Source: an uncultured virus (IMG/VR IMGVR_UViG_3300010262_000228) (Duplodnaviria; Heunggongvirae; Uroviricota; Caudoviricetes). From it: a stretch of DNA of 64,000 nt. Positions 12,567 to 28,581 of the stretch are shown one piece after another. The notes beneath the pieces are model-generated. The model was not told the origin of the DNA, searched no databases, and saw nothing but the letters and a program-made list of their open reading frames with translations. The translations under genes and the position numbers were made by a program. Position 1 is the first letter of the stretch; each line of letters starts with the position of its first letter. The stretch lies in IMG/VR virus record IMGVR_UViG_3300010262_000228, one strand, 5' to 3'.

Positions 12567-13472
12567 TTAAGAATGCAGCGCATCTATGGAAACAATTTCC
12601 TCAAAACCGCTTTCTGGACAAAAATCCATTCTGTGGTTAAATGTAGCTACAAATTCAGATGCATCTATGGACTCATAATCAACATCTACCATCTCTCCTC
12701 GGGTAAATTCGACCGATAAAATATCTTTGCCACGATTCTCCGCATCCACGATTACCCGTCTAAACGGTAATAGAGCAAATAAATCCCTCGCAACTCGGAT
12801 GGCACAACCACAAACATAATCCTGTAGCAGTTCATTATATTCGGTTTTGGGCAAATGCTCTATATCTCGCAATACCTGTGAGCTGTTAACTTTGAAATGA
12901 ACTGAAAGCATTCTCGGATCTTCAGTCCCGCACTCGAATTCACTACCGAAACGAAGCAAATCATCAACCGGGTTCATGTCGGATATGATTTCAAAATATG
13001 TATCCAAATCCCCGTTCAATACACGTTCGGCTCGCGCTTTAAGGTAATCCCAATGAGGAATATCCGCGTCGTAATCCTCAATCAAAATCTTCCGCCAATC
13101 AATGGCCGCATCAGCGGTTTCATAAATCCCTTCAATTAAGGACATTGCGGCAGAACGATGATCCACTTCTTGAACAGGCGTGTATTCAGGAGTGGGCGGT
13201 AACGTCGTTGGAGCCGCATAGCTCGTAGCAGGGGTTTCTCTAATAGTGTTTGTACGCGATCTTGGAGACGCAGATGAATTCTTCTTCCGATTTGTTGAAG
13301 TCACATAGGACAAGCCTGTTCCGGGTATTCCGAAAGATTTTGTAACGCGACCAGTAGTGCTATAAGTTGTTCGGAACCCTTTCCCACCTAAACTAAGACT
13401 GGCGCTTTTCATGCCAAAATTCACTCTAACACCAGGCAAGAGTGTAACGCTTTTTCTAAATCTCCAGCCCAA
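12567..13472 (-). CDS. DUF4236 domain protein
   Basis: MGWRFRKSVTLLPGVRVNF...GIPGTGLSY N-terminus. Confidence 0.8.
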   Translation of the reverse strand: MGWRFRKSVTLLPGVRVNFGMKSASLSLGGKGFRTTYSTTGRVTKSFGIPGTGLSYVTSTNRKKNSSASPRSRTNTIRETPATSYAAPTTLPPTPEYTPVQEVDHRSAAMSLIEGIYETADAAIDWRKILIEDYDADIPHWDYLKARAERVLNGDLDTYFEIISDMNPVDDLLRFGSEFECGTEDPRMLSVHFKVNSSQVLRDIEHLPKTEYNELLQDYVCGCAIRVARDLFALLPFRRVIVDAENRGKDILSVEFTRGEMVDVDYESIDASEFVATFNHRMDFCPESGFEEIVSIDALHS

Positions 13473-13476
13473 AATA

Positions 13477-14397
13477 TCACCCCTTGTCCTCGTTTTTCTT
13501 CTTAAAGAAACTCATCAATCTACTTCTTGTAACTCCTTTTGGTTCGGAAGCATCTTCAGATAATTCGTGGTGTTCTTCCTCTTCAACAGGAGCTAAGGCA
13601 TCAGGCTGCACATTGGAACAAGTCTGATCTTCATGACCGGCAAGCGCGGACTCGGATTCTATATTGTCGCAGTCGATAATAATTGCACTACAGTCATCGG
13701 GAGAATTATTCTCCTTTGCGCGAGAAGCCAATTCACGGAGCGCTTTTGCCCAATCCCCATCACAACTACCTAATATATCTTCCATATCATCTGTGCTGAG
13801 ATAATCGTGGATGCCATCGCAAGTCAAAAGAAACTGGCGATATTGTACCAGATCGATATGATCTGTTTTGATTCGAAGCAACGAAGATTTTCCACCACCA
13901 AAACACGCAGTAATCTCATTTCTGGCAGGGTAATTAACTGCCTCTTCCTCCGTTAGCTTTCCGGTTCGGATAAGATACTCAACAACAGTGTCATCCGAGG
14001 TTAATTGTTTAAGATACTCACCAGCCTGAATCGCGTACAAGCGTGTGTTGCCCACATGATAGCTCTGTGCTGACGAAGTTGAAGAAAAATACACTCCTGT
14101 GGCAGTAGTAGCCATGTTTCGATAATTTTCATTGGCTGCACTCATCGAGATGAGGTGTTCATTGATTGCCGAAAATGATTCAGGTGTCAATTCGACAACG
14201 TCAGACATTTTTTTGCATACCTGAAATGCGGCAACTGCGCCAGCATTGTTCCCGCCTACGCCATCAGCGAGCAAAACATGGCCATGACTGAGGTTTCGGA
14301 CTGCCTCTTGATCTGAAAACACTTCGTTCCCGACAAGCGCCCTGTCCTCGCTGGCGTCTTTATTGATTCCCTTCTGTGATAGCAGGTACACTTTCAT
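13477..14397 (-). CDS. PP2C/PPM-family Ser/Thr phosphatase
   Basis: SEDR, ADGVGG, VGNTRLY, LLTCDG, DDCS motifs; AGGAGG RBS before ATG 14397. Confidence 0.88.
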   Translation of the reverse strand: MKVYLLSQKGINKDASEDRALVGNEVFSDQEAVRNLSHGHVLLADGVGGNNAGAVAAFQVCKKMSDVVELTPESFSAINEHLISMSAANENYRNMATTATGVYFSSTSSAQSYHVGNTRLYAIQAGEYLKQLTSDDTVVEYLIRTGKLTEEEAVNYPARNEITACFGGGKSSLLRIKTDHIDLVQYRQFLLTCDGIHDYLSTDDMEDILGSCDGDWAKALRELASRAKENNSPDDCSAIIIDCDNIESESALAGHEDQTCSNVQPDALAPVEEEEHHELSEDASEPKGVTRSRLMSFFKKKNEDKG

Positions 14398-16324
14398 CGA
14401 CAGACACCTCCTCTGTAGGAGCAACTACAGTTTCTTTTCTGTTGACTCGTCCGATTAGGCTTACAGGCTGTGTTGTCGTGTCAACCGAATCAATGTAAAC
14501 CTCGGCGTTATCAAATACTCTTTGATCGAACAAGAAGCGAGATAGGGGGTTGATTAGGTAACTTTCAACGATATTACCTATTCCTCGACCACCATTGTTG
14601 AGATTTCCAAGCGCAGAACTTGATAAGGCATCTCTGGCCGCTGCTTCAATAACCAAGTCGATTTTCTTCTCAGCTTTAAGCGTTCGAACAATCTTGTTGA
14701 TTTGCGCATCCAAAATTTGTTGCCCTATTTCAGGTCTAATATAATCGAATACTACGATGTTTTCGCCTATGCGGTTCAGAATCTCGGGCCTGCCAAGTTC
14801 CAACTTAAAATAATCTGCGATTGCAGATTTGACCTTATCGGACACTTCTTCGTATGCCATATCGATCGTAACATTGGCAACTCTCTCGCCAATTGAGTTT
14901 CGGGTGTAGATGCCCAGGTTGCTGGTAAATATGATGATACACTCCGAAAAATAAACCGTCTGTCCCTGCCCGTCAGTCATTCTGCCATCTTCGAGAATCT
15001 GCAAGAACTTATCAAGAATAGAAGGGTGAGCTTTTTCAATCTCATCGAACAAAAGGATCGAAAATGGTTTATTCCGTACAGCGTTTGTTAATTGGCCACC
15101 TGCTTCATAGCCCACATATCCAGGAGGTGCACCAAGCAGCTTCTGATCACTATGACTCTGACTAAACTCACTCATGTCAAAGCGAATACACGCATCTTCG
15201 TGTCCAAAAAGGATCTCAGCCAAGGTTTTAGCGGTCTCGGTTTTACCGGTACCTGTTGGACCCGCAAAGAAAAGGACACCTTTAGGACGTCCATGTGAAG
15301 ATCCCTGTAGTCCTGAAAGGCCGGTGATTGCGCGCTTAACAATATCTAAAGTTTTTGTTTGCGCATAGGACTGGCCCTTTACTCGACTTTCGAAATGTGC
15401 TGGCGCATTTTGAATCTCCTCTAGGTCAAGTTGCTTCCACGGATTCTCTCGAATTCCGTACTTGAAGAGGTCAACTACATCACACATCTCCTGAATCCGT
15501 AGCTTTTCCTTTTTGCAAAGTTTTCTAAGACCATTAAGTTCCGTGAAACTCATGCCTTCTGTCAGAGCAACAAATTTGTCTTGGATTTTGGCCAGCTCTT
15601 CGGGAGAAGATTCAAACGCTGCAAAATCCTCATCATAGATTGAACGATCAAAGAAACTGGCAAAATTATTGCCTTTCACCAGTAGTTCGCGCTCTTCAAT
15701 TGACGGGGGACCTATACTGATGGTCTTGACATTTGGATTTTGCAGATAGAACCATGCCGGAAGATCATTCACCTTATTCGCAACGATGACCAAAAGATTC
15801 TTGAGAATTGTTGTTCCTTCGCAGCGAACTTCTTTAGCCTCTAAGGACGCCTTAATAAGCGCGGAGTAGGCATCCACCTCCTCCTGAACCAGATTATCTG
15901 GGGAGGGTATGTACCTAGATGCCATATTCATGATGACCACAGAAGGGACATCCGTTTGAGCCAATATCTGACGAATATACTGCGGTGCAGAGTCTCGTTG
16001 GGCGCTTTTGAATTGAGCCTCCACTTTGCCGTTGCTGTTTCTAGCATGAACAGTCTTAGCAAAATGCTCCAGCATTTCAGGCGCGTTCGTGTTGTAAAAC
16101 CCTTCCACACTATCATAGTGGATAATTGTCTTATAGCCGATATCCTTGAAGTGATAAAAGAGGTAATCAGGCAGACGAAGGATAGATCCCTTCGGCATAC
16201 TTCCTTCGACGGGATATTGATAAACGTCGAGCACATTGCCCTCCAAAATCAAGAGAGGCTTGATTTGGGTAAACAGTTCAAGTTCCCTGTGCCATTTGGG
16301 GACATAACTTAATTCTTCAGCCAA
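14360..16324 (-). CDS. AAA+ ATPase with a single intact ClpB-NBD2-like module
   Basis: GPTGTGKT, RFDMSEF, GAPPGYVGY, LFDEIEKAHP; N-terminal half has no recognisable Walker A or Clp-N repeats. Confidence 0.85.
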   Translation of the reverse strand: MAEELSYVPKWHRELELFTQIKPLLILEGNVLDVYQYPVEGSMPKGSILRLPDYLFYHFKDIGYKTIIHYDSVEGFYNTNAPEMLEHFAKTVHARNSNGKVEAQFKSAQRDSAPQYIRQILAQTDVPSVVIMNMASRYIPSPDNLVQEEVDAYSALIKASLEAKEVRCEGTTILKNLLVIVANKVNDLPAWFYLQNPNVKTISIGPPSIEERELLVKGNNFASFFDRSIYDEDFAAFESSPEELAKIQDKFVALTEGMSFTELNGLRKLCKKEKLRIQEMCDVVDLFKYGIRENPWKQLDLEEIQNAPAHFESRVKGQSYAQTKTLDIVKRAITGLSGLQGSSHGRPKGVLFFAGPTGTGKTETAKTLAEILFGHEDACIRFDMSEFSQSHSDQKLLGAPPGYVGYEAGGQLTNAVRNKPFSILLFDEIEKAHPSILDKFLQILEDGRMTDGQGQTVYFSECIIIFTSNLGIYTRNSIGERVANVTIDMAYEEVSDKVKSAIADYFKLELGRPEILNRIGENIVVFDYIRPEIGQQILDAQINKIVRTLKAEKKIDLVIEAAARDALSSSALGNLNNGGRGIGNIVESYLINPLSRFLFDQRVFDNAEVYIDSVDTTTQPVSLIGRVNRKETVVAPTEEVSVDESVPAITEGNQ

Positions 16325-16943
16325 GAATGATTACACCTCTTTCTTTTGCTTTGTTCTGGAGATCACTTCTAAATCCCCTATGATGAATACCGACAGAGAC
16401 AAATCCGTCTGATGTTGGAAAAGTCTGGATTTCGTTTGAGCCAATCTGAGCCAGATAGTCTAGGTATCTTTCCTTGATTGAGCTGTCAAGAAATAGTATG
16501 CGTTGGTTTTGAGATCCCTTTAGAGGAGATCCGTCGTTGAGTTCATCTATGTATTTCCCATCTATGAGGACACTTACATTCTTGAGACAGTCCCTGTAAG
16601 CCTGATTGCAGAAAGAAAGTAATTGTTCATATTCATAGCCTGTGTAAACCAAAATATCATTCGAAAATGTCTTCAACATAGGAATGAGAATACATAATTC
16701 TTCTGCTTGCATCATTGGATCTCCACCAGTAAGGACAAACCCTTCAATGGGACCTTTTCCTGCAATAGCCGCAATCGCCGCAAAGATGGTATCCAACGAC
16801 ATTTCCTGATCATCACGCTGTTCCCATAGTTCCGGGTTGCAGCAATGCGCACAATGGTGTGGGCAGCCGGAGAACCATATGCCAACCCGCTTACCTGGTC
16901 CAAGGACTGTTACAGGATATAAAATTCGAGCAATTTTCATCAA
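16317..16943 (-). CDS. Small radical SAM protein, NrdG/activase-like
   Basis: GPGKR...GCPHHCAHC (CxxxCxxC), TGGDP, LIDGKY, GSQNQR. Confidence 0.85.
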   Translation of the reverse strand: MMKIARILYPVTVLGPGKRVGIWFSGCPHHCAHCCNPELWEQRDDQEMSLDTIFAAIAAIAGKGPIEGFVLTGGDPMMQAEELCILIPMLKTFSNDILVYTGYEYEQLLSFCNQAYRDCLKNVSVLIDGKYIDELNDGSPLKGSQNQRILFLDSSIKERYLDYLAQIGSNEIQTFPTSDGFVSVGIHHRGFRSDLQNKAKERGVIILG

Positions 16944-17551
16944 ACAGTCCCAACAATAAAATAGGCAGCTTCTTCTTGTCGTGTGCCGTTGACAATGATA
17001 CCACCAAGGGCAACTTCATCCCCAGCTTTGAGCGGTGTTCGGCCAGCGGGTATCCGAATGTTATTGACATACGTATAATTTGTGTTGCTCAGGTTCTCGA
17101 TGTATGCTGTGCCATTTTCAACCGTAAGTTTGGCGTGAATCCGACTGACATACTGCTTGCCGATTAAACACTCGCGCATTCCATGCTCACGACCGATGAT
17201 GATGCTTCCTTCTGGTAATGGATAAACATAATCCGAGTCAATGCTGGAGAGCTGATATCTGCATCCCGAATCAACTTCGCTTGGGATGGGCAGAATATCG
17301 CTTATATCTTCATTGCATTTCTGGCACTTCCTGGCTTGCGCAGGATTAACCTCTCCGCAATAACATACGCGAACGAGAGAGCGCTCAGCGGTTGGTGAAG
17401 ACTCCTCGGTATGTTCAGTTTGAACAGCTGGAGCAACCACCTCTGTATCCGTTATAGGAATTCCCATCAAGTCGGTTCCGCAGTTGATACATTCCATTGA
17501 GCGTGGATCGTTTTGTTCCTTGCAAGTGGGGCATAATTTGTATTTGCTCAT
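16940..17551 (-). CDS. Zinc-ribbon + FHA domain protein
   Basis: CPTC/CINC and CYC/CQKC pairs; FHA motifs IGRE, VSRIHA, TNYTYVN. Confidence 0.85.
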   Translation of the reverse strand: MSKYKLCPTCKEQNDPRSMECINCGTDLMGIPITDTEVVAPAVQTEHTEESSPTAERSLVRVCYCGEVNPAQARKCQKCNEDISDILPIPSEVDSGCRYQLSSIDSDYVYPLPEGSIIIGREHGMRECLIGKQYVSRIHAKLTVENGTAYIENLSNTNYTYVNNIRIPAGRTPLKAGDEVALGGIIVNGTRQEEAAYFIVGTV

Positions 17552-17571
17552 GGTAACACCTCAAAACGCAA

Positions 17572-18864
17572 TTAGTTCTGCAAAGAGCGTTGCTTCGGCT
17601 TCTTGTTGACTTTACGCTTTTGATTAGGACTACTCTTTGTTGTGACTGTGGAATAGTCAGTCACATTGATTACTTGTGCATATTCGGCTGCTGGCGGGCT
17701 TAACCTAATTCGATTCTTGAGTATAACACCACGCGCAGCCAGTCTTCTTTCAATTTCGGCAAAGTCAGAACAAAATGCCTCCATTGTTTCTACGATACTT
17801 TGGCTTTCGGAGCTTTCAGGAATTCGATCCTGGGTATCCGTTTTCCCGACCTCCATCGTGATTCGGCCATCATCGCTGAAAATGACGTTAACCGCAGAAT
17901 CATGGTCATATTGGAACAAGCTGCTGCTGTAATGGGAACCGTTGCGCTTGGTGACTTCTCGCTGACCGCGTATGCTATAGCCCATTTCCTCCATAACCGC
18001 AGAAATAGAGTCCTCGATATAAGCGTCTTCAGCTTGGCGCTGATACTCAATTTCTTCTAGCGCAATGAGCTTTGCAATCTCGGCGATAGCATTCGACGAG
18101 AATGGGATAACAGCCACTTGGTCTCGTCCGTTTTCCTTTGCTAATAGCTCATACCGCTGTAATAGCAATTCGTACTGAGCACCGTCTTTCTCCCACAATT
18201 CCACAAAGTCCTCACACATTTTGATGGTGGGTTGAACTTCAACGGAGAAGAAACCATCCATGCCATCGGGTGTCACATGAGCCTTTCGCTCGATCAGACC
18301 ATCAATTTTTTGGCGTAAGTTCGCAGGCAAGTGCTTGAGTGAGGCATAAGACTGTAGCATTGCAAATTGCTGCTCATGACGGCTCTCTGGCTCGGTGTTA
18401 TAATCAGGTTCTTCCTGCTGCGCAAAAAGTTCGGAAATACTAGAAGTTAACACACTTTGAAGCTTTTCAGCGATATTCGCTGCTTGCTCCGAAACAGAAT
18501 CAGCAGTTGTCTGGAGGTCTTTCACCTGCGCTTCAATAGTTCTCAGGTTTTTTTCTAGTTTTTCATTGTCCTGAAGATCTGCACTTACTGACATCAACTG
18601 TGTCAAGTTTTTGATCGAAGTGTTTGCCGCTGCAATCACGGCACTTAATGCGGAAGAATTCAAATGCAGGGTTTCTTCTTTTGCGACAAGATCGTACTTC
18701 AAAAGGGATTGTGAAATATGCTCCACCTTTGGAATATTAGCTTGTAGCTCATTCAGCAGTTCCTGACGCCGCTCCAGCTCACGCATTCTACGCTGCAACT
18801 CAGCTGCGATAATTGCACGCTGTTGGGGAGTCAAATCATAAACTGAGACTTTGGGTCCACTCAT
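17572..18864 (-). CDS. Coiled-coil hypothetical protein (starts MSGPK)
   Basis: AGGAG RBS before ATG 18864; helical heptad-like N-terminal half. Confidence 0.75.
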   Translation of the reverse strand: MSGPKVSVYDLTPQQRAIIAAELQRRMRELERRQELLNELQANIPKVEHISQSLLKYDLVAKEETLHLNSSALSAVIAAANTSIKNLTQLMSVSADLQDNEKLEKNLRTIEAQVKDLQTTADSVSEQAANIAEKLQSVLTSSISELFAQQEEPDYNTEPESRHEQQFAMLQSYASLKHLPANLRQKIDGLIERKAHVTPDGMDGFFSVEVQPTIKMCEDFVELWEKDGAQYELLLQRYELLAKENGRDQVAVIPFSSNAIAEIAKLIALEEIEYQRQAEDAYIEDSISAVMEEMGYSIRGQREVTKRNGSHYSSSLFQYDHDSAVNVIFSDDGRITMEVGKTDTQDRIPESSESQSIVETMEAFCSDFAEIERRLAARGVILKNRIRLSPPAAEYAQVINVTDYSTVTTKSSPNQKRKVNKKPKQRSLQN

Positions 18865-18875
18865 GTTGCTTCTCC

Positions 18876-20621: not shown

Positions 20622-20636
20622 AGTTCACCTCCAGGA

Positions 20637-21707: not shown

Positions 21708-21709
21708 AT

Positions 21710-22477: not shown

Positions 22478-22490
22478 AGTTGTATCTCCT

Positions 22491-23036
22491 TTATTCGGTC
22501 GGAGTTACTTCAGATACGGTATTAACGGGCATATCAACCGGAGTGGTATCAGGGACATCCACCTTCGGCAAAATTGTGCTTCCCGGAACACTAGCAGCGC
22601 TGGTCAATCCCAACTGGGCACTCAAGTCAACAACATCGGTAGCTGCGGGAGCCTTGATGGAATTAAGGGTGCTGAGCGAAGGCGCCGCATTGCTATGGGA
22701 AGCGTGATTGCTATGGTTGCTATGAGAACTATGACTGCTGTGCGTACTGGAAGAATGGTTGCTGTGCCCAGAGCCGGACGAATGGGAAGAGTGCGAAGTA
22801 TGCGATACATGAGAATAGTGTCCGCCGCTTCCAGAAGAATGACTTCTATGGCTACTGTGAGATCTATGGCTGGAATGAGAACGATGTCCAGCAAACGCTT
22901 CATCCGCCAGCAAAAAGCAGAACAGTAGGAGCATAGAGCCAACAGTCAACACCTTGTTGCGGGGGATGTTACCCTCTTGGTCATACATAAAGTCTTCAAC
23001 CGCTTTTTTAATGTGCGGGAACAATGAATCGGCCAT
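22491..23036 (-). CDS. hxsA: His-Xaa-Ser repeat protein (HxsA-type putative radical-SAM substrate)
   Basis: 15 HxS and 4 HSN triplets after a hydrophobic leader; next to HxsB/HxsC. Confidence 0.85.
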   Translation of the reverse strand: MADSLFPHIKKAVEDFMYDQEGNIPRNKVLTVGSMLLLFCFLLADEAFAGHRSHSSHRSHSSHRSHSSGSGGHYSHVSHTSHSSHSSGSGHSNHSSSTHSSHSSHSNHSNHASHSNAAPSLSTLNSIKAPAATDVVDLSAQLGLTSAASVPGSTILPKVDVPDTTPVDMPVNTVSEVTPTE

Positions 23037-23048
23037 TTTCTATCCTCC

Positions 23049-24167
23049 TTAGCTCTCTACAACCTTGGTGCATTTACCGTTAGACCAAGTAGTAGTGAAT
23101 GTGTTTCCTGACTCTTTGTAATATGTAGCAGAGCCATCGGGCTTGCCATTGACAAATGTTCCTGTGATGTAAGGATAAGACTCTGCGGTGAAGTAGTATT
23201 CCCCACTTCCGCTCATGACACCATCAACCCATTCACCATCATAGGAAGCGATAACCGAAGAATTGCTTTTCCATTTGAAAACGCCGTCACCATGTCGGAC
23301 TCCATTCTTCACTTCACCTACATATGTATTTCCACTTTTATAGGTGATAGAGGCATCTCCAGTAACATCACCATCATAGCTGAGGCCGTCAGAAGTGACG
23401 AACTCAAAACCCGTCAATTCGCCAGAGGTGAATGTCGCTTCAAAGGAAGTAAAACCTTTCTCTGTAGCTAAAGCGCCCAGAGAGAATGTGCCGGAATCAT
23501 ATTTATTGTTGCTGAAGGTTCCTTTGTATGTACGGCCATCAGCAAATGTATATGTTCCATCATACATCTGATCGTTTTCCCAAGTCCCAGAGAAAGAGTC
23601 TCCGTTCTCCCAAACGAAAACACCCTTTCCTCCGCGCAAGCCGTGCTCGATGTCACCAACGTAAGTTCCACCGCTTGCGAATGCTGTCTCGGAATCGAAG
23701 CTACCAGAGCCAAATGCTCCATCCTCAAATGTTCCAGTATAAGTCAGCCCATTCACATAGGTCAGGGTTCCTTCGACCAGTCCATCAGCGGACCATGTTC
23801 CCTCAAAACGATCACCATTTTCCCAGGTATAGACGCCTTCACCATCACGAAGGGAATCGACAAAATCGCCTTCGTAGATGCCGCCTTCGATATACTGGAA
23901 CTCGCCAATGCCAGAATAAACGAGATCGGTGGCATTACCTAAATAAGTACCACCTTCGCTTTCGATAACGGTGTAGACCTGTGTAAAAGGCTCGGTTGAG
24001 GTCAGCTTCTCTGGGGAGGCAAAATTGGAAATTAAAGAGACAACGATTAGAAAAACAAATATCAGCCCGGTGTTTTTCAACAGGCCGCCAACAAAGCGTC
24101 CTGTCTTCTTGTTCTTTTGCGGCTTCGCAGCCTTAATTTTTGGTTTCGATTTCTTTACAATCTTCAT
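23049..24167 (-). CDS. Membrane-anchored MORN-repeat protein
   Basis: N-terminal TM; repeated YEGDF..G.RxG.G.Y.W.NG units. Confidence 0.85.
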   Translation of the reverse strand: MKIVKKSKPKIKAAKPQKNKKTGRFVGGLLKNTGLIFVFLIVVSLISNFASPEKLTSTEPFTQVYTVIESEGGTYLGNATDLVYSGIGEFQYIEGGIYEGDFVDSLRDGEGVYTWENGDRFEGTWSADGLVEGTLTYVNGLTYTGTFEDGAFGSGSFDSETAFASGGTYVGDIEHGLRGGKGVFVWENGDSFSGTWENDQMYDGTYTFADGRTYKGTFSNNKYDSGTFSLGALATEKGFTSFEATFTSGELTGFEFVTSDGLSYDGDVTGDASITYKSGNTYVGEVKNGVRHGDGVFKWKSNSSVIASYDGEWVDGVMSGSGEYYFTAESYPYITGTFVNGKPDGSATYYKESGNTFTTTWSNGKCTKVVES

Positions 24168-24171
24168 AGTT

Positions 24172-25566
24172 TTAACCCTCAATCCAAGAATGCAAAATTC
24201 GAATTGTTTCCTCGTCGTTTTCCTTCAGCAACGAGAAAAGATGATCCAGAATGCCGGCATATACTTTGCAGCGATAACCATGGGCTTGTCTCGCAAAAAT
24301 ATCTCCGTCCATCGCATAATTGATCACCGGACAGACTCCGCAGTACGGGTGGTAAACACAATCGCAGCAACCGGGTATCGATTCAAGAACTGACGAAGCA
24401 CAAGTTACCTTGCAGGTGCTCGAACTTACAAGAGACTCATAATCATCGGAGAATACATCTCCTAAACAGAAGGCATTGTCACCGGCCTCCGCAACCATTC
24501 GGCCTTCATCGCAGGTATAAACCTTACCATCATAATAGTAAGCCATTTGGCCAACACCGGCACCGCAAGGGGATCGGAGTTCCATGTAGTTGTAGGAATA
24601 TCCGTGCAATATCTTTTTTAAGAAATATGTAGAATGCTGCTCTGGGAAACAAAGCCCTTCCCGATTCACCGCAAGAATCTCGTCGAAAGCCTCTTTATAG
24701 AAAGCGGAAAATTCCTCCGGAGAGTATCCAATAAGATCCCAATCTTCTTTTGCAAAGCCGAGTGGAGTCAAGGGGCGGAGGAAGATCCCGTTGGTTCCGA
24801 TGCTAACATATTCACGAACGATCTCTTTCGCATAGGCCAATGACTCTCTGGTTGTTGTTTGAATAGCACCAACAGAGTAGTTTTTTGCATGAATACGCTG
24901 CACGCCATCCATAACATACTCATAGCTGCTACCGACACCACAAATTCTTCGGTTATGATCGTGCAAGACCTTGGGGCCATCGAGCGATGTGCTGATTGAG
25001 AAGTTGTGTTCAATCAGAAAATCGAGAATTTCGTCCGTTGCAAGGGTGAGATTGGAAACAATGGTATATTCAATTTTCTTGTCCCCCTTGTGAGCCTCGC
25101 TGTATTCAACCATCGCTTTTATTGTCGCAAAGTTGACCAGCGGTTCCCCACCTTGAAACTCAAACGTGAGATTGTTGGAAGGAGACTGAAGCGCAATGTC
25201 TATGGCTCGAATACCCACCTCAGCGGACATCATGCCGTGCTTTCTCTCCTTTGATGCCTGTGCTTGACAATAAATACACTGGAGATTGCAGGCATTGGTA
25301 ACAACAAAAATGTGGAGGGTTGTTGGGGTGAATACATAGTTCTTCATTTTGCGTAGATCTGAAGCAATCTCGCTGGAGTACAGCTCCATTGGTTCAAGCA
25401 AAAACAATTTTTGATGCAGTTGCTCATACAAAGGCGAACTCGTATCGACCTGATTTGTGGCTAGTGCCCGAAACTCGGAATCGGTCAAAAAGGCATGGAG
25501 TCCAAAGTCATTTGTGACTAGCACACAATCTTTGTCGATCTTTTTGAAATTGAAATGATTAAGCAT
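24172..25566 (-). CDS. hxsB: His-Xaa-Ser system radical SAM/SPASM maturase HxsB
   Basis: LHIFVVTNACNLQCIYCQA, EFQGGEPL, YMELRSPCGAG, YTCDEGRM, C-terminal Cys cluster. Confidence 0.88.
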   Translation of the reverse strand: MLNHFNFKKIDKDCVLVTNDFGLHAFLTDSEFRALATNQVDTSSPLYEQLHQKLFLLEPMELYSSEIASDLRKMKNYVFTPTTLHIFVVTNACNLQCIYCQAQASKERKHGMMSAEVGIRAIDIALQSPSNNLTFEFQGGEPLVNFATIKAMVEYSEAHKGDKKIEYTIVSNLTLATDEILDFLIEHNFSISTSLDGPKVLHDHNRRICGVGSSYEYVMDGVQRIHAKNYSVGAIQTTTRESLAYAKEIVREYVSIGTNGIFLRPLTPLGFAKEDWDLIGYSPEEFSAFYKEAFDEILAVNREGLCFPEQHSTYFLKKILHGYSYNYMELRSPCGAGVGQMAYYYDGKVYTCDEGRMVAEAGDNAFCLGDVFSDDYESLVSSSTCKVTCASSVLESIPGCCDCVYHPYCGVCPVINYAMDGDIFARQAHGYRCKVYAGILDHLFSLLKENDEETIRILHSWIEG

Positions 25567-25590
25567 AGTATTCGACCACCAAAAGAAGAG

Positions 25591-26691
25591 TTAAAGATGT
25601 ATAGGGATGACCTTTGGTTTGGCAACACCCAAAGTGCTGCTGAAATACCCGCCGCAAAACGATTTTGCATCACATTCATCGCAGCCGGAAGCATACCGTA
25701 TCTTGTACGGCGTAATGCTCTGGCGGCATAGGGACCAAAATCCTCGTTCGACTGTGCAAAGCGGGTAGTTATATAACGATGTATCAATTCCTGCATCGAC
25801 CAAAACACGCAGCGCCGGCTTTATGAACTTAAATGTTTCTGTATAGTCCATGTAAACCTGTTCGAAGTTTTTCGCACAGTTTCCAAGCGTTTCCAATCCG
25901 ATAAAGTTAACAATCCGCACTTTGGGCAGGGTCGTCTTTATGAATTGAGCTATATCGGAAAGATATTCGACATTCAATTTAGATACAACGACTCTAAGCT
26001 CAATAGGAATACCCTTCGCAGAGAGATTGTGAATTCCCATAAGGGTGTGCTTAAAGCTATCCTTAGCTCTTGCTATCGAATCATGCAAACCAGCGTTATG
26101 GCCGTGTAAAGGAATGGCGATTTCCAAAAATGGAGGGCAATGGGACACAAGCTTTTCCACCATTGATTTTGAGGCGAATGACCTCCCGTTGGTCAATAGT
26201 AGAACACCGGCAGTTGGGAACTTGTCTGCTAACAATTCCATGGCCATGAAGAATTGATTTGTCTTCAGTGTCGGCTCGCCGCCAGTCACAACGATGTGAG
26301 ACAGATCCGGAGGAAGCAGCTCAATATATTTTCTGAGCAAATCATCTGTGTAGCCAGTATTATACTGTCGCTCGTAATCTGAACAAGGACACATCACGCA
26401 GTTAGAGTTACATTGCCCAGTAATGAAGACCGTCGCATCAGAGTCGCAGCTATCATACAGTTTGTAAACAAAGCCGGTATTACTTATTGAGATAATATCT
26501 CCGGAGCGAAGCTCGTTGTGAAACTTTTCTGCATGGGTTCCAAGTTCGAAATCCGCACCTATAGATAAAATCGTTGCGGAAGACTCGTGAAGCACAAAAA
26601 TATCTTCTCTACAAACAGCAAGATCATCCTCATCTGTCTGAACCATCAGGACAAATTCTTCTGATTTATAGTTCGGTATCATCAGAGCCAT
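25591..26691 (-). CDS. hxsC: His-Xaa-Ser system radical SAM maturase HxsC
   Basis: TGQCNSNCVMC, TGGEPT, LLTNGRSF, IELRVV, YNYPLC, CDEC..SFCGG. Confidence 0.85.
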   Translation of the reverse strand: MALMIPNYKSEEFVLMVQTDEDDLAVCREDIFVLHESSATILSIGADFELGTHAEKFHNELRSGDIISISNTGFVYKLYDSCDSDATVFITGQCNSNCVMCPCSDYERQYNTGYTDDLLRKYIELLPPDLSHIVVTGGEPTLKTNQFFMAMELLADKFPTAGVLLLTNGRSFASKSMVEKLVSHCPPFLEIAIPLHGHNAGLHDSIARAKDSFKHTLMGIHNLSAKGIPIELRVVVSKLNVEYLSDIAQFIKTTLPKVRIVNFIGLETLGNCAKNFEQVYMDYTETFKFIKPALRVLVDAGIDTSLYNYPLCTVERGFWSLCRQSITPYKIRYASGCDECDAKSFCGGYFSSTLGVAKPKVIPIHL

Positions 26692-27731
26692 AGCATAATC
26701 ACCTCGATCAGGAGAAAAATGATTGTTCCGATACTAATAAAAGTGGCAAAAGGAATCTTTCTAACTATTACAACAAAAGGTTTTCCGAGAGATGAGGTCT
26801 CCCAACGATGAATACTTTCTGCCTCTTCAGCGGTTATTCTCGACCGCAGGTCTTCAGTCATCCCTGTAGGCAACCCTTGCACTCGTGAAGGCTTGAAACT
26901 CATAACGGTAGCAGCTGAGAGTATATTGCCCTTTCGTACTTCGGAAGTGGGGATTGCTTTATAGTTGTATTTTTCCGAAATCAGTCTGACGCCCATAATA
27001 CCGAGAACAAGAAGCCAAGATCTCACATCAAAGGTGGTGGAGAGAGATACAACGTGCGTTACGGTAAGGCCAGCAATTAGGAGCCAAATGGCTACGGTAT
27101 AACAAACAAGGATTCGAAAACGGAGTTTTGCCCTCAGATGGATCAATGTGAGAACCACCAAAAAATTGATTGCCGTTGCAAATACAGTATCACTGTTATA
27201 CAGGTTGTGGAATAACCGAGAAAAAAGCAAATTGATCACAAGGATAGATCCGACCATCGAGAAATACGAGACTATTCCTTCGAGGAAATGGGGTTGTCCA
27301 AATGATACCTTAAATAAATCTTTGTTCCGAATTCCAAGAACAATTGATTCCGCAACAACAAAAATGAAAGCAATAGAAAAGGTCAGCACAATGATTACGA
27401 AACCCGACCAAATTCCGATATCCCAGAAAGAGTAAAATCGACCAGGAATGCTGAGGCCAACAACAAATAGCAGCTTGCTGTCGCCGGCAGCCCATAAATG
27501 ATAACCGTAGAAGGCTATGGCCACAATGACCAACAAGAGCATATTGGTTGCCGCAAGCACAAAATACTCAGAGGCAAACCCCAGATAATAAATTGCATCC
27601 AATATCGCAGCAACGGCACCGCATTTTGCAAGTGTTCTGTTCTTTACAATGCTCTCTTTACAGTCGGTATAGCTGGAGCACACAAGAAGAACTATTAGAT
27701 TGGTTAAAAGTAAAGCTTCAAGAATAATCAT
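26682..27731 (-). CDS. A24 (prepilin/preflagellin-type) aspartyl peptidase
   Basis: Polytopic membrane protein with SYTD and AAGDSKL catalytic Asp motifs; C-terminal IPFA. Confidence 0.75.
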   Translation of the reverse strand: MIILEALLLTNLIVLLVCSSYTDCKESIVKNRTLAKCGAVAAILDAIYYLGFASEYFVLAATNMLLLVIVAIAFYGYHLWAAGDSKLLFVVGLSIPGRFYSFWDIGIWSGFVIIVLTFSIAFIFVVAESIVLGIRNKDLFKVSFGQPHFLEGIVSYFSMVGSILVINLLFSRLFHNLYNSDTVFATAINFLVVLTLIHLRAKLRFRILVCYTVAIWLLIAGLTVTHVVSLSTTFDVRSWLLVLGIMGVRLISEKYNYKAIPTSEVRKGNILSAATVMSFKPSRVQGLPTGMTEDLRSRITAEEAESIHRWETSSLGKPFVVIVRKIPFATFISIGTIIFLLIEVIMLWL

Positions 27732-27949
27732 ATTTCTCCACGGGCATTTGAAAGCTCAATAAGATAGTTTGAAAATTCGTTCGCAGTCAGCTCAAGATCA
27801 GCCACACTTTTTATAAAAATGCAGAGTGTGCCCCCACGCTGGCGCTTTTTCATAATCACACAAATAGAGCGGTAATCCAGAATGGCGCGATCGATCAGAG
27901 CCTCGCTATATACCGTTTGCGGTAAAAAGAGTTCAATTCTTTTTTTCAT
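27728..27949 (-). CDS. HxsD-like small protein
   Basis: VYS..LI..AI.DY...ANEFSNYLIEL pattern; in Hxs operon. Confidence 0.6.
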   Translation of the reverse strand: MKKRIELFLPQTVYSEALIDRAILDYRSICVIMKKRQRGGTLCIFIKSVADLELTANEFSNYLIELSNARGEI

Positions 27950-28325
27950 AGCTATCAAACCAATTCGTTAGGATGGAATTCAATTCGTTTTCATCGATGT
28001 CTGCCTGATCACCCGCAATGCGCTCCATCGGATCATTATCATCTATCATAGTAGACGTCATTGCGCGGGCCATCAGCAATTCACGGAGGGTGTGCGTCTG
28101 CTGATAAACATTCCACCGTACAGCCTGTGAAATAAGTTCATTCTCGAACTCGCCCATAAATGCGGCATAATTACCGGCATCGTTTTTCAAACTAAAATTG
28201 ATGATCCATGTGTCGGGGGTTTCATCAATATGGATATACGCATCTTTTATAAACGCATAGGCTGCTTTAAGGATAACCTGTGGCAAATACATACCCTTTG
28301 TAACGGTAAAGGAAAACTTGTTCAT
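27933..28325 (-). CDS. hxsD: His-Xaa-Ser system protein HxsD
   Basis: ILKAAYAF...GEFENELI...LRELLMARAM. Confidence 0.7.
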   Translation of the reverse strand: MNKFSFTVTKGMYLPQVILKAAYAFIKDAYIHIDETPDTWIINFSLKNDAGNYAAFMGEFENELISQAVRWNVYQQTHTLRELLMARAMTSTMIDDNDPMERIAGDQADIDENELNSILTNWFDSYEKKN

Positions 28326-28371
28326 TTGGGAATCCCCTTCATTCGAGATATAGGTTAATTCGTAGGTGATG

Positions 28372-28581
28372 TTATTCTTTGTCGGGAACATACTCTATGA
28401 TGTCGCCGAAGTTTAACGAAAGCTCTTTACAAATGCGTTCGAGAACAGCAAGGGATACAGGCTCATCTTTGCGCATTTTCGTCAGTGTGTTTGGGGACAA
28501 CTGTAGCTGCTTGCGCAAGTCTGCCTTGCTCATTTTTCGGTCAATAAGATGCTTCCACAGAGGATTATAAGAAATAGCCAT
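28372..28581 (-). CDS. Cro/XRE-like HTH (HTH_26) regulator, first gene of the operon
   Basis: ISYNPLWKHLIDR.MSK..L...VSL.VL.RIC..L. Confidence 0.85.
   Translation of the reverse strand: MAISYNPLWKHLIDRKMSKADLRKQLQLSPNTLTKMRKDEPVSLAVLERICKELSLNFGDIIEYVPDKE

What the first reader, a model, noticed from the sequence alone, without database searches (positions are those of the whole stretch)
12567..28581. 17-gene operon joining a His-Xaa-Ser radical-SAM system to a kinase/FHA/PP2C/AAA module, divergent from a WYL regulator
Seen: 17 co-directional genes with overlaps or gaps under 50 bp: HTH, two HxsD-like, A24 peptidase, HxsC, HxsB, MORN, HxsA, 2-TM protein, beta-propeller, kinase, coiled-coil, Zn-FHA, NrdG-like radical SAM, ClpB-like AAA, PP2C, DUF4236. 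Known: HxsA-D is a bioinformatically defined system whose function I know of no proof for, and WYL regulators (BrxR, CapW) often control anti-phage loci. Inference: one integrated system with a modified surface or membrane His/Ser peptide, extracellular MORN and propeller partners and a phospho-switch/unfoldase output, plausibly for defence or inter-cell conflict.
Basis: partly seen in the sequence, partly recalled or inferred. Interest (0 to 1): 0.82.

Follow-up and report, generated by a model that had tools for sequence, protein, structure and literature searches.

The report
HXS phage barrier fused to kinase-AAA cassette
A mobile element of a gut Clostridia bacterium carries one 17-gene operon that joins a Gram-positive version of the recently proven HXS phage-DNA-entry barrier to a separate, undescribed kinase/phosphatase/AAA/radical-SAM gene set, and related elements appear to keep the two together.

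Summary
The array is low-GC cargo of a conjugative element.

It is not one indivisible system. It has three blocks:
- A (genes 1-8): an HxsA3-type variant of HXS, which was shown in 2026 to block phage DNA entry in E. coli. Here it also has an A24-type peptidase and a MORN membrane protein.
- B (genes 9-10): two membrane proteins.
- C (genes 11-17): kinase, coiled-coil protein, Zn-FHA, NrdG-like radical SAM, ClpB-like AAA+, PP2C and DUF4236.

Each main block stands alone in most relatives:
- None of 15 HxsB loci from species genomes carries block C.
- None of 12 genomes with block C has HxsB.
- Elsewhere block C, or its AAA/radical-SAM core, sits beside Hhe- or Mokosh-like helicases.

In the window's own clade, however, A and C travel together:
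- One metagenome contig has C directly upstream of HxsD, the opposite order to the window.
- Twelve further HxsB/AAA cluster pairs share an exact contig length (about 0.6 expected by chance). This is indirect, because those contigs could not be fetched.

Best reading: a stable, co-regulated fusion of two autonomous defence modules. Obligate integration is not shown. Block C is the more novel part.

The parts
28372..28596 (-). Gene 1: Cro/C1-type HTH regulator, first gene of the operon
   Evidence: PF13443 HTH_26, 3.3e-20. An HTH homologue lies next to a WYL gene upstream of Hxs in L010.
27933..28391 (-). Gene 2: HxsD
   Evidence: TIGR03976, 73.9 bits against a cut-off of 50. Found in 14 of 15 HxsB loci.
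27728..27958 (-). Gene 3: HxsD-like small protein
   Evidence: NF038315, 42.9 bits against a cut-off of 41. tblastn finds it in 8 of 15 loci, and ORF-level blastp labels more.
26682..27731 (-). Gene 4: polytopic membrane protein, an A24-type (prepilin/preflagellin-like) aspartyl peptidase with a C-terminal extension
   Evidence: Seven hydrophobic segments. D23, N31, W80, G83, D84 and K86 are invariant in 13 homologues. Twelve of 13 homologues hit PF01478, though the window copy does not. The only PDB profile hit is FlaK 3s0x, E 0.26, aligned over both Asp motifs. Present in 15 of 15 loci.
25591..26691 (-). Gene 5: HxsC radical SAM maturase
   Evidence: TIGR03977, 306.5 bits against 267.9. CNSNCVMC at residue 94.
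24172..25566 (-). Gene 6: HxsB radical SAM/SPASM maturase
   Evidence: TIGR03978, 541.7 bits against 370. CNLQCIYC at residue 93.
23049..24182 (-). Gene 7: membrane-anchored MORN-repeat protein
   Evidence: PF02493, 2.6e-25. One N-terminal hydrophobic segment at residues 33-51. Found in 14 of 15 HxsB loci. Also found with block C and without Hxs in L212.
22491..23036 (-). Gene 8: HxsA3, the His-Xaa-Ser repeat substrate/effector
   Evidence: NF038309, 112.9 bits against 65. It has 15 H-x-S triplets, 20 His and 40 Ser in 181 residues, and one hydrophobic segment at 29-47. A conserved leader of about 30 residues is seen across the 15 loci.
21710..22477 (-). Gene 9: protein with a helical cytoplasmic domain and a C-terminal membrane hairpin ('bridge' gene)
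   Evidence: No family hit. Two C-terminal hydrophobic segments. The family is small, 23 proteins. Outside the window it is seen after HxsA3 in L015 and beside block C in L212. Model pLDDT 84, with no PDB fold match.
20637..21707 (-). Gene 10: membrane-anchored DUF5050 beta-propeller-type protein
   Evidence: PF16472, 9.7e-11. Hydrophobic segment at 33-51. It follows HxsA3 in L001, L003 and L015 and precedes the AAA gene in L212.
18876..20621 (-). Gene 11: Ser/Thr protein kinase with a C-terminal domain of about 280 residues and unknown family
   Evidence: PF00069, 2.1e-28. HKDLKPSN and DFG are present. PADLOC mad6 1.4e-33 and PD-T4-6 models match over the kinase domain only.
17572..18918 (-). 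Gene 12: long coiled-coil protein with an alpha/beta end domain. The true start is probably M19, at 18864.
   Evidence: The Atlas holds the sequence from residue 19. MSG at the start is invariant in 12 homologues. Model pLDDT 77. Structural matches are middling: spermine synthase N-domain Z 9.0, Chk1 KA1 Z 8.6.
16940..17551 (-). Gene 13: double zinc ribbon plus FHA phosphothreonine-binding protein
   Evidence: PF00498, 1.3e-12; PF12773, 4.8e-06.
16317..16943 (-). Gene 14: small NrdG/PflA-type radical SAM protein
   Evidence: Fer4_12, 8.3e-31. TIGR02491, 106 bits against a cut-off of 126. C27, C31 and C34 are invariant in 15 homologues.
14360..16324 (-). Gene 15: AAA+ ATPase with one active ClpB-D2-like module and a family-specific N-terminal domain of about 300 residues
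   Evidence: AAA_2, 1.7e-49; ClpB_D2-small. GPTGTGKT and ILLFDE are present. 1589 proteins match the N-domain. It is paired with the radical SAM gene in Clostridia, Rhizobium, Moellerella and Acinetobacter.
13477..14424 (-). Gene 16: PP2C Ser/Thr phosphatase
   Evidence: NF033484, 8.8e-38 (below its cut-off); PF13672, 2.3e-06. DGVGG motif present.
12567..13472 (-). Gene 17: DUF4236 protein with an S/T/P-rich linker and an unknown C-terminal domain; last gene of the operon
   Evidence: PF14020, 1.3e-18. It holds the same last position in L031 and L219. A terminator-like hairpin lies at 12470-12451 on the minus strand.
28597..28766 (.). Divergent control region between the HTH gene and the WYL gene
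   Evidence: Promoter-like hits on both strands: minus 28662-28634 and plus 28710-28738, each with an upstream TG. These are consensus matches only. Sequence read.
28751..29722 (+). Divergent WYL-domain regulator (likely ATG start at 28767)
   Evidence: PF13280, 4.8e-14. PADLOC WYL, 8.8e-26. A 32% identical WYL gene lies upstream of Hxs in L010.

Best explanation
The array is a stable, lineage-specific fusion of two defence modules that can each stand alone. They are expressed as one operon on a conjugative element, under a divergent HTH/WYL control region.

Block A (genes 1-8) is a Gram-positive form of the HXS phage-DNA-entry barrier.
- Inferred: HxsB and HxsC, helped by HxsD and the HxsD-like protein, modify the His-Xaa-Ser repeats of HxsA3 in the cytoplasm.
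- Inferred: the A24-type peptidase removes the conserved 30-residue leader at the inner face of the membrane. HxsA3 then stays anchored by its hydrophobic helix, with the repeats and the Ser/Thr/Pro-rich tail outside, beside the MORN protein.
- By analogy with E. coli HxsA (shown there, not here): it hinders entry of phage DNA.

Block C (genes 11-17) is a cytoplasmic phospho-switch. All steps are inferred.
- The kinase marks a target, possibly the coiled-coil protein or the Ser/Thr-rich linker of the DUF4236 protein.
- The Zn-FHA protein reads the phosphothreonine and recruits the ClpB-like AAA+ unfoldase with its radical SAM partner as the executing pair.
- PP2C resets the switch.

Block B (genes 9-10) supplies a membrane and extracellular link and may feed envelope events to the kinase.

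Together they would give layered protection: a barrier at the membrane and a regulated response inside the cell.
For: Membership of block A:
- HxsB, HxsC, HxsD and HxsA3 all score above their curated cut-offs.
- HXS is shown to be anti-phage in E. coli: all four genes are needed, HxsA is processed at its N-terminus, modified by +8 Da and exported (PMC13128918, sections read).
- The 7-gene cassette HxsD-(HxsD-like)-A24-HxsC-HxsB-MORN-HxsA3 is conserved in gut Clostridia: A24, HxsC, HxsB and HxsA3 in 15 of 15 loci, HxsD and MORN in 14 of 15. Four near-identical virus-classified contigs carry it too.

Autonomy of the two modules:
- None of 15 Hxs loci carries block C. Twelve have 3 kb or more of sequence downstream, and ten have 6 kb or more upstream.
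- None of 5 Hxs genomes has the AAA N-domain.
- Block C was found in 7 of 399, 4 of 401 and 1 of 401 sampled Clostridia genomes.
- In those 12 loci: kinase and AAA in 12 of 12; radical SAM, FHA and the coiled-coil protein in 11 of 12; no Hxs gene in any.
- HxsB is over its cut-off in 0 of those 12 genomes; the positive controls G001 and G004 score 509 and 511 bits.

Stable fusion in the window's clade:
- L031 carries kinase...DUF4236 and then HxsD and HxsD-like with a 4-nt overlap.
- There are 10 exact contig-length matches between the top-120 AAA and HxsB cluster lists (0.55 expected by chance), plus 2 more through AAA cluster members.
- Nine of 17 HxsB clusters at 61-66% identity to the window are matched, against 0 of 15 at 54-58%.
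- One contig of 14,857 nt appears to hold HxsB, gene 9 and the AAA gene.
- The matched AAA clusters are spread through the large clade that contains the window.

Mobile and defence context:
- In the window: VirD4, a MobL relaxase, ArdA genes and serine recombinases, and a GC drop from 0.50-0.56 to 0.42-0.46.
- Around block C elsewhere: a VirD4 gene, an integrase, RelB and HigB genes, a YhcG nuclease, ArdA, and Hhe/PDC-S37- or MkoA-like helicases.
Against: - No experiment bears on this locus or on any HxsA3-type system or block C.
- The evidence for recurrence of the fusion is mostly indirect.
- The tight coupling, the persistence of the fusion through roughly 35-40% protein divergence, and genes 7, 9 and 10 occurring with block C alone in L212 would fit true functional dependence equally well.
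- Block C has no recognisable toxic effector such as a nuclease, pore or NADase.
- PADLOC hits cover only the generic kinase and P-loop cores. Its defence role therefore rests on context.
- Block C often lies next to surface-repeat proteins: BspA-type LRR, MORN, DUF5050, SH3 and DUF6273. That could point to a role in the envelope or in cell contact rather than in defence against phage.
Confidence: 0.5

Rival explanations
1. One obligately integrated 17-gene system. In this clade the kinase/FHA/PP2C/AAA/radical SAM genes are needed for, or are triggered by, the HxsA3 surface barrier. For example, genes 9-10 could sense an engaged barrier and switch on the cytoplasmic arm, or the AAA+ and the third radical SAM could take part in HxsA3 maturation or export.
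For: - The spacer between the halves is 15 nt with a strong ribosome-binding site, and L031 has a 4-nt overlap at its junction.
- The scan places no terminator-like site in the junction between the halves.
- The fusion persists in diverged relatives and in two gene orders.
- MORN, a gene-9 homologue and DUF5050 sit directly upstream of block C in L212, without Hxs.
- Gene 9 was found in only 1 of 401 Lachnospiraceae genomes, and that genome also has block C.
- The E. coli authors state that extra host factors may be needed for HxsA maturation and export (PMC13128918, Discussion).
Against: - Both modules are complete and conserved without the other in all species genomes examined: 15 Hxs loci and 12 block C genomes.
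- Block C pairs with unrelated partners elsewhere, namely Hhe/PDC-S37-like and MkoA-like helicases.
- The E. coli system needs only four genes.
Confidence: 0.25
2. Block C, and perhaps the whole array, is not anti-phage. It would be a phospho-regulated AAA+/radical SAM machine that controls surface or envelope proteins, cell-to-cell contact or conjugative transfer, carried as ICE cargo. HxsA3 would serve here as a surface or exclusion factor for incoming DNA in general.
For: - Block C recurs next to predicted surface-repeat proteins: a 1480-residue BspA-type LRR protein in L023, an LRR_5 protein in L030, an SH3_3 protein in L025, DUF6273 in L190, and MORN/DUF5050 in L212.
- It lies next to a VirD4 coupling-protein gene both in the window and in L029.
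- From my own knowledge: the kinase/PP2C/FHA/ClpV set resembles the threonine-phosphorylation control of type VI secretion.
- The E. coli paper notes that effects of HXS on plasmids and other mobile elements are untested.
Against: - No secretion-system genes accompany block C in the loci examined.
- Its neighbours are typical of defence islands: toxin-antitoxin genes, nucleases, and Hhe- or Mokosh-like helicases.
- The Hxs half belongs by score to a family with demonstrated anti-phage activity.
Confidence: 0.12
3. The two modules are merely neighbours in a crowded defence island. They happen to be read through from one promoter, with no selection for keeping them together.
For: - Each module is autonomous elsewhere.
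- Gene order differs between the window and L031.
- The island also holds a WYL gene plus an MBL-fold protein.
Against: - Twelve contig-length matches against about 0.6 expected by chance.
- The matches are spread through a diversified AAA clade.
- The junctions are translationally tight in both gene orders.
Confidence: 0.1

Closest known systems
HXS anti-phage system of E. coli/Klebsiella (HxsD-HxsB-HxsC-HxsA; Li et al., Nat Commun 2026, PMC13128918)
   Same: - Twin radical SAM maturases HxsB and HxsC, the small HxsD protein and a His-Xaa-Ser repeat protein, all above NCBIfam cut-offs.
- The substrate has an N-terminal part that is removed and is placed outside the cytoplasmic membrane. This was shown in E. 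coli and is inferred here.
   Different: - The substrate is HxsA3 rather than HxsA. It has a conserved 30-residue leader, one hydrophobic helix, 15 H-x-S triplets and a Ser/Thr/Pro-rich tail, and Pfam finds no peptidoglycan-binding domain.
- Extra conserved genes: an HxsD-like protein, an A24-type peptidase and a MORN membrane protein.
- Gene order is D-D'-A24-C-B-MORN-A3, against D-B-C-A in 99.6% of the systems the paper surveyed.
- The host is a Gram-positive Clostridia bacterium, whereas the paper finds 99.7% of systems in Pseudomonadota.
Threonine-phosphorylation control of type VI secretion (PpkA kinase, PppA PP2C, Fha1, ClpV AAA+); recalled from my own knowledge, not from a call
   Same: The same four kinds of protein: a Hanks-type kinase, a PP2C phosphatase, an FHA protein and a ClpB/ClpV-type AAA+. 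The AAA+ scores 220 bits on TIGR03345 (ClpV1) and the FHA protein scores weakly on TIGR03354; both are far below their cut-offs.
   Different: - No secretion-system genes.
- A Gram-positive host.
- The AAA+ has a single active module and its own N-domain.
- A radical SAM partner, a coiled-coil protein and a DUF4236 protein are added.
Helicase-based defence genes Hhe / PDC-S37 / Mokosh MkoA (PADLOC models)
   Same: In relatives, block C or its AAA/radical SAM core is directly joined to such helicases:
- L190 and L219: a DUF4011 helicase, PDC-S37 1308 bits and Hhe 545 bits.
- Rhizobium: a kinase-helicase fusion.
- Acinetobacter and Moellerella: an MkoA-like helicase plus a PIN protein.
   Different: The window has no such helicase: tblastn of the L190 helicase against the window finds nothing. 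The Hxs cassette occupies the position that the helicase has in L190 and L219.
Kinase-based phage defences (Stk2, PD-T4-6, MADS Mad6)
   Same: An active Hanks-type kinase domain. PADLOC mad6 1.4e-33 and PD-T4-6 2e-25, over the kinase core.
   Different: - The matches are to the generic kinase fold only.
- NCBIfam MAD6 scores 78.9 bits against a cut-off of 460.
- None of those systems is described, to my knowledge, with FHA, PP2C, a ClpB-like AAA+ and a radical SAM.
WYL-domain regulators of defence loci (BrxR, CapW); recalled
   Same: A divergently transcribed WYL protein next to a defence operon. PF13280 4.8e-14 and PADLOC WYL 8.8e-26.
   Different: - Membership of the BrxR or CapW families was not tested.
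- A homologous WYL gene is linked to Hxs in only 1 of 15 loci, L010.

Membership tests
HXS system (Haft models TIGR03976-03979; Li et al. 2026) | HxsB radical SAM/SPASM maturase | tested here: met
   TIGR03978, 541.7 bits against a cut-off of 370; CxxxCxxC present.
HXS system (Haft models TIGR03976-03979; Li et al. 2026) | HxsC, the second radical SAM, adjacent to HxsB | tested here: met
   TIGR03977, 306.5 bits against 267.9. It lies directly upstream of HxsB with a 24-nt gap.
HXS system (Haft models TIGR03976-03979; Li et al. 2026) | HxsD small protein | tested here: met
   TIGR03976, 73.9 bits against 50. A second HxsD-like protein scores NF038315 42.9 against 41.
HXS system (Haft models TIGR03976-03979; Li et al. 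2026) | [quoted passage not shown] | tested here: not met
   TIGR03979 scores 28.7 bits against 121.65. The protein is HxsA3 (NF038309, 112.9 against 65) with 15 H-x-S triplets, and Pfam finds no peptidoglycan-binding domain. It is therefore a subtype variant, not the canonical four-gene system.
HXS system (Haft models TIGR03976-03979; Li et al. 2026) | Blocks phage DNA entry; HxsA is cleaved, modified by +8 Da and exported | not testable with these tools
   Shown only for the E. coli system (PMC13128918).
Peptidase A24 (type IV prepilin / preflagellin peptidases) | Two catalytic Asp residues in membrane segments, the second in a GxGD-type motif (motif recalled from my own knowledge) | tested here: met
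   D23 and G83-D84 are invariant in 13 homologues. Both align to FlaK 3s0x, profile E 0.26.
Peptidase A24 (type IV prepilin / preflagellin peptidases) | Significant match to Pfam PF01478 | tested here: inconclusive
   The window's copy has no match at E<=10. Twelve of 13 homologues match, best 1.4e-10.
NrdG (anaerobic ribonucleotide reductase activase) | Score above the TIGR02491 cut-off and an NrdD partner | tested here: not met
   106.4 bits against 126.1. No family scan of the window's ORFs returned an NrdD-like gene. The conserved partner is the AAA+ gene.
ClpB/ClpV/ClpA two-ring AAA+ chaperones | Two active AAA+ modules and a score above the family cut-offs | tested here: not met
   Only residues of about 274-616 match ClpB D2 (260 bits against 1232). 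The N-domain has no Walker motifs and few invariant residues.
Mokosh / Hhe helicase defence systems | A large SF1-type helicase gene | tested here: not met
   The window has no helicase homologue (tblastn). The kinase matches only the N-terminal kinase part of an MkoA model.
Any PADLOC v2 system, for block C as a whole | Model hits on the system-specific genes (radical SAM, FHA, coiled-coil protein, DUF4236) | tested here: not met
   No PADLOC hit at E<=0.01 for the FHA, radical SAM or DUF4236 genes. The coiled-coil protein has only marginal hits (PDC-S06 0.0054, JetC 0.007). The AAA hits PDC-M37B and DolB over the P-loop core only. PADLOC dates from 2023.

The most novel reading that the evidence does not exclude
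Block C is a new, widespread and portable immune signalling and effector module. Its conserved core is a ClpB-D2-like AAA+ paired with an NrdG-like radical SAM enzyme, and it plugs into different front ends: Hhe/Mokosh-type helicases, surface-repeat proteins, or HXS. In this clade it would be wired through the membrane proteins of genes 9-10 to the HXS DNA-entry barrier, so that events at the envelope are reported by phosphorylation to a radical-chemistry/unfoldase effector. That would be a two-layer, envelope-sensing defence with no described counterpart.
Probability: 0.2. Interest if true: 0.85.

Novelty: new variant of a known kind. Interest (0 to 1): 0.62.

Why it matters
- **Extending HXS.** HXS is presented by its discoverers as the first system shown to block phage DNA ejection, and they report it almost only from Pseudomonadota. 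This locus shows a conserved Gram-positive form with its own leader peptidase and a MORN partner. Those could supply the processing and anchoring steps that remain unexplained in E. coli.
- **A new candidate module.** The second half defines a six- to seven-gene cassette (kinase, PP2C, FHA, coiled-coil protein, AAA+, radical SAM, with or without DUF4236). I found no description of it in print. Its AAA+/radical SAM core spans Clostridia, Proteobacteria and Cyanobacteria and sits in defence-type neighbourhoods.
- **A test case.** The stable fusion of the two offers a natural way to ask whether a surface barrier and an intracellular response cooperate.

Tried and rejected
- **AAA+/radical SAM complex.** Complex prediction with alignments A2 and A3 gave no answer (score 0.00). 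It counts neither for nor against binding.
- **Fold of gene 9.** Foldseek against the PDB gave nothing at E<=0.001. The wide VIA search matched only the C-terminal helical hairpin (Z up to 7.5). Nothing was learned about the N-domain.
- **Fold of gene 12.** The matches are middling only: Foldseek E 0.025; VIA Z 9.0 for the spermine synthase N-domain, 8.6 for the Chk1 KA1 domain and 7.3 for the AMPK C-terminal domain. This is a lead, not an assignment.
- **Atlas searches.** Genes 12 and 17 gave only 'hypothetical' or DUF4236 clusters.
- **RNA evidence.**
  - Contigs from four metatranscriptome runs of three studies carry fragments of both halves.
  - One bovine run covers 28 of 30 bins at 90-99% likeness.
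  - These are assembly contigs from RNA libraries, so they do not prove transcription.
  - No listed piece bridges 20621-20637, so co-transcription stays untested.
- **Glycyl-radical motif.** I looked for one in the AAA+ family and found no candidate. The invariant GGRGIG at 578-583 sits where ClpB has its sensor-2 arginine (the motif knowledge is recalled).
- **BLASTP comparisons.** Gene 12 against the Acinetobacter 371-residue protein, and gene 17 against the L212 360-residue protein, showed no significant similarity.
- **The missing end of L015.** L015 is the closest HxsB relative and its contig ends inside DUF5050. Its genome G004 has no AAA N-domain and only a generic kinase. Gene 9 was found in 1 of 181 relatives of G004, and that one is G004 itself.
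- **Other collections.**
  - Viral contigs: the AAA query gave only ClpB-like D2 matches.
  - Viral contigs: the N-domain alignment gave nothing.
  - Viral contigs: the single HxsB query gave nothing.
  - Phage records: nothing for the AAA N-domain.
  - Plasmids: HxsB matched only at 38% identity or less, the canonical type.
- **Earlier findings of this scan.** Searches by sequence, by place and by block C words found nothing.
- **Literature on block C.** Searches found nothing relevant. The one paper holding all the terms (PMC7159879, passages read) does not describe it.

Full report
**Observation**

The window holds 17 consecutive ORFs on the minus strand, from 28596 down to 12567.
- Neighbouring genes overlap by 4-65 nt or are separated by 2-24 nt.
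- A WYL gene runs the other way from 28751.

- Gene 1 is an HTH_26 regulator.
- HxsD scores 73.9 bits (cut-off 50) and the HxsD-like protein 42.9 (cut-off 41).
- HxsC scores 306.5 (cut-off 267.9) and HxsB 541.7 (cut-off 370).
- The MORN and DUF5050 proteins are recognised by Pfam.
- The repeat protein is HxsA3 (112.9 bits, cut-off 65). It is not canonical HxsA (28.7 bits, cut-off 121.65).
- The second half holds a Ser/Thr kinase, a double-zinc-ribbon FHA protein and an NrdG-like radical SAM (106 bits, below the NrdG cut-off of 126).
- It also holds an AAA+ with a ClpB-D2-like module, a PP2C phosphatase and a DUF4236 protein.

Catalytic motifs are intact, and the hydrophobic segments fall where a membrane or surface reading requires them.

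Gene 4 has no Pfam hit of its own. It is still an A24-type aspartyl peptidase by family evidence:
- 12 of 13 homologues hit PF01478.
- D23 and G83-D84-x-K86 are invariant.
- The only PDB profile hit is the preflagellin peptidase FlaK, aligned over both motifs, with a weak E of 0.26.

**Setting**

The whole window is a conjugative element. It carries:
- a VirB4/TraG-like ATPase, a MobL relaxase, a Toprim primase and a VirD4 coupling protein;
- a LexA-like repressor with a Y-family polymerase;
- three ArdA-domain proteins and several large serine recombinases.

The operon lies in a stretch of 0.42-0.46 GC, against 0.50-0.56 to its left. Sequencing runs that hold the stretch are animal gut, faeces and bovine samples.

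**What is known**

The Hxs half is no longer of unknown function. Li et al. (Nat Commun 2026, PMC13128918) describe the system; I read the abstract and outline, the first Results section, the distribution section and the Discussion. They show that:
- E. coli HxsD-HxsB-HxsC-HxsA restricts 110 of 113 coliphages by hindering DNA entry;
- all four genes are needed;
- HxsA is cleaved at its N-terminus, carries a +8 Da modification and acts in the periplasm.

They report 99.7% of systems in Pseudomonadota and 99.8% with four genes.

**Is the Hxs half a conserved unit?**

A scan of one genome per species with HxsB gave 15 loci at 46-61% identity. All are gut or rumen Clostridia, including Anaerostipes, Faecalibacterium and Lachnospiraceae MAGs, except one bin (L002) that its record labels Bacteroidales. 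tblastn and ORF-level blastp with all 19 window proteins show the cassette HxsD-(HxsD-like)-A24-HxsC-HxsB-MORN-HxsA3:
- The A24 peptidase, HxsC, HxsB and HxsA3 are present in 15 of 15 loci.
- HxsD and MORN are present in 14 of 15.
- Two loci have MORN-HxsA3 moved to the front.
- DUF5050 follows HxsA3 in 3 of 15 loci, and gene 9 in 1 of 15 (L015).

Four near-identical virus-classified contigs carry the same seven genes.

The HxsA3 proteins share a common layout:
- a roughly 30-residue leader;
- a conserved Gly followed by a small residue;
- a hydrophobic helix ending in an AxA-like site;
- the HxS repeats, then a Ser/Thr/Pro-rich tail.

An earlier report of this scan (e1-2565730) had already described this Gram-positive six-gene variant. 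My results agree with it.

**Do the halves co-occur?**

In species genomes they do not.
- None of the 15 Hxs loci has any gene of the second half. The only partial exception is an unrelated 767-residue kinase in L011.
- Twelve of those loci have 3 kb or more of sequence downstream and ten have 6 kb or more upstream.
- The N-domain of the AAA+ is absent from 5 of 5 Hxs genomes tested.

Conversely, I searched for the AAA N-domain in samples of Clostridia genomes.
- It was found in 7 of 399 genomes of the class (two further genomes could not be scored), in 4 of 401 Lachnospiraceae and in 1 of 401 genomes of the order of L015's genome.
- In the 12 fetched regions the cassette coiled-coil / Zn-FHA / radical SAM / AAA+ / PP2C / kinase is conserved. 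Kinase and AAA+ are present in 12 of 12; radical SAM, FHA and the coiled-coil protein in 11 of 12. The kinase lies at either end.
- No Hxs gene lies in these regions.
- HxsB over its cut-off is found in 0 of the 12 genomes, while the control genomes G001 and G004 score 509 and 511 bits.

The AAA+/radical SAM pair also occurs outside Clostridia, on plasmids:
- In Rhizobium it is followed by a 2086-residue kinase-helicase fusion.
- In Moellerella and Acinetobacter it is preceded by an MkoA-like helicase, a PIN protein and a hypothetical protein.
- A Geminocystis plasmid carries a related AAA+ gene, but no radical SAM gene was detected beside it.
- In the Aristaeella plasmid (L190) and in L219 the kinase is directly preceded by a giant DUF4011 helicase that matches PADLOC PDC-S37 and Hhe.

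Both halves are therefore autonomous modules, and the second half takes different partners.

**The fusion recurs in the window's own clade**

- *Direct evidence.* The metagenome contig L031 (AAA+ 64% identical) reads kinase, a 450-residue unknown, coiled-coil, Zn-FHA, radical SAM, AAA+, PP2C, DUF4236, HxsD, HxsD-like, and then the contig ends. HxsD scores 84 bits and HxsD-like 74.8 bits, and the junction overlaps by 4 nt. This is the reverse order to the window.
- *Close variant.* A bovine RNA-library assembly covers both halves at 90-99% likeness, so it is a close variant of the same element.
- *Indirect evidence.* The protein-database listings give each cluster's longest contig.
  - Between the 120 best AAA clusters and the 120 best HxsB clusters there are 10 exact length matches. 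About 0.55 are expected from the density of near-misses.
  - Two more matches come through members of an AAA cluster.
  - Several pairs are singletons seen on one contig each. The 14,857-nt contig also matches a gene 9 cluster.
  - Among HxsB clusters with a contig of 14 kb or more, 9 of 17 at 61-66% identity to the window are matched, 3 of 12 at 58-61%, and 0 of 15 at 54-58%. Because both lists are truncated, these are lower bounds.
- *Trees.*
  - In a FastTree of 74 AAA+ sequences, the matched clusters are scattered through the large clade that holds the window. The helicase-linked L190, L211 and L219 fall in another clade.
  - An IQ-TREE of 21 sequences groups the window with L031 and L030, with 93/95 support.

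I could not fetch the matched contigs, so their gene order is unknown.

**The bridge genes**

- Gene 9 belongs to a small family of 23 proteins in the 5.8-billion-protein set.
- In 401 Lachnospiraceae genomes it was found once, in G623.
- There the order is MORN, a 360-residue protein, the gene 9 homologue, DUF5050, AAA+, PP2C, kinase, coiled-coil, FHA and radical SAM. No HxsB is found in that genome.
- MORN, gene 9 and DUF5050 therefore go with either module.
- Other copies of the second half lie next to BspA-type LRR, SH3 or DUF6273 proteins.
- This is the best hint that the cytoplasmic switch listens to the cell surface, but it rests on few loci.

**Transcription signals**

- The junction between gene 10 and the kinase gene is TGA, 15 nt containing GGAGGTG, then ATG.
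- The scan's first-listed terminator-like hairpin on the operon strand is at 12470-12451, after the last gene.
- Promoter-like sites are no more frequent than in shuffled sequence: 29 found against 30.3 expected.

**Mechanism**

*Block A.* What is shown elsewhere is the function of HXS in E. coli. The rest is inferred here: cytoplasmic modification of the HxS repeats, removal of the leader by the A24 peptidase, and display of anchored HxsA3 beside the MORN protein.

*Block C.* Everything is inferred from domain content. It resembles the kinase/PP2C/FHA/ClpV control of type VI secretion, which I recall from my own knowledge.
- The kinase writes the mark, FHA reads it and PP2C erases it.
- The AAA+ with its cross-phylum radical SAM partner executes the response.
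- The coiled-coil protein has an alpha/beta end domain with middling likeness to KA1/AdoMetDC-type folds (Z 9.0-7.3). That would suit a kinase-associated scaffold.
- No toxic effector domain is recognisable.

**Verdict**

- The array is a composite of a known kind (an HXS variant) and an undescribed cassette.
- Each part is autonomous elsewhere, yet the two are kept together in one clade of mobile elements.
- Whether they depend on each other is open.

My odds are 0.5 for a co-inherited pair of autonomous modules, 0.25 for true integration, 0.12 for a non-defence role of the second half, and 0.1 for mere neighbourhood.

Noticed in passing
window 28751-31420 (+): The WYL gene is followed, after a 141-nt gap, by a 518-residue MBL-fold protein with two N-terminal hydrophobic segments. 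It matches the ComEC/Rec2 C-terminal domain (2.6e-41) and PADLOC LmuA, RTasMBL and Avs1a models. A 35% identical MBL gene lies about 2 kb from the kinase/AAA cassette in L025. It may be a third defence-type unit controlled by the WYL protein.
   Followed up: partly
L212 (G623:C7) 558-10917: MORN, a 360-residue protein, a gene 9 homologue and DUF5050 lie directly upstream of AAA-PP2C-kinase-coiled-coil-FHA-radical SAM. No HxsB is found in that genome, and a YhcG PD-(D/E)XK nuclease lies downstream.
   Followed up: partly
L190 1176-19038 and L219 7190-20000: A giant DUF4011 helicase (PADLOC PDC-S37/Hhe) is joined head-to-tail to the kinase gene of the cassette. The L190 and L219 copies are 41% identical over 912 residues. 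L190 also has a second, 950-residue kinase and a DUF6273 protein.
   Followed up: partly
L210 731-10450 (Acinetobacter plasmid) and L191 1478-11431 (Moellerella plasmid): A five-gene set recurs next to ArdA, integrase and IS genes: an MkoA-like helicase, a PIN protein, a hypothetical protein of about 375 residues, the ClpB-like AAA+ and an NrdG-like radical SAM. In Acinetobacter a second small AAA (VakA/PDC-M51B-like) and another radical SAM follow.
   Followed up: partly
window 16317-16943 (-), residues 183-187: The NrdG-like radical SAM family has an invariant Gly-Ile near its C-terminus, inside a conserved S/A-V/I-G-I-H/P stretch. I cannot place this motif in NrdG or PflA.
   Followed up: no
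L031 9208-10171: The DUF4236 gene of this metagenome contig is read in three frames. It is either broken or carries assembly errors.
   Followed up: no
L002 3941-5302: This short contig seems to carry two HxsA3-like ORFs after the MORN gene.
   Followed up: no
window 33596-35813: A divergent pair on the element, next to the cargo island: a LexA-like repressor (HTH_3 plus Peptidase_S24) and a Y-family (ImpB/MucB/SamB) polymerase.
   Followed up: no
window 40812-47526 (+): Three ArdA-domain proteins, one of them with a DUF4314 domain, plus a fourth protein with DUF4314 alone (44940-45923), lie in a row. This is an unusually large anti-restriction block on the same element that carries the defence cargo.
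   Followed up: no
window 50579-54629 and 60460-62490 (+): Three large serine recombinases and a truncated-looking fourth (52130-53041), which lacks the resolvase domain. These are the likely integration and excision genes of the element.
   Followed up: no
L029 4943-6817: A VirD4-type coupling-protein gene lies directly upstream of the kinase/AAA cassette. In the window the VirD4 gene abuts the cassette end. This suggests a shared cargo slot in conjugative elements.
   Followed up: no
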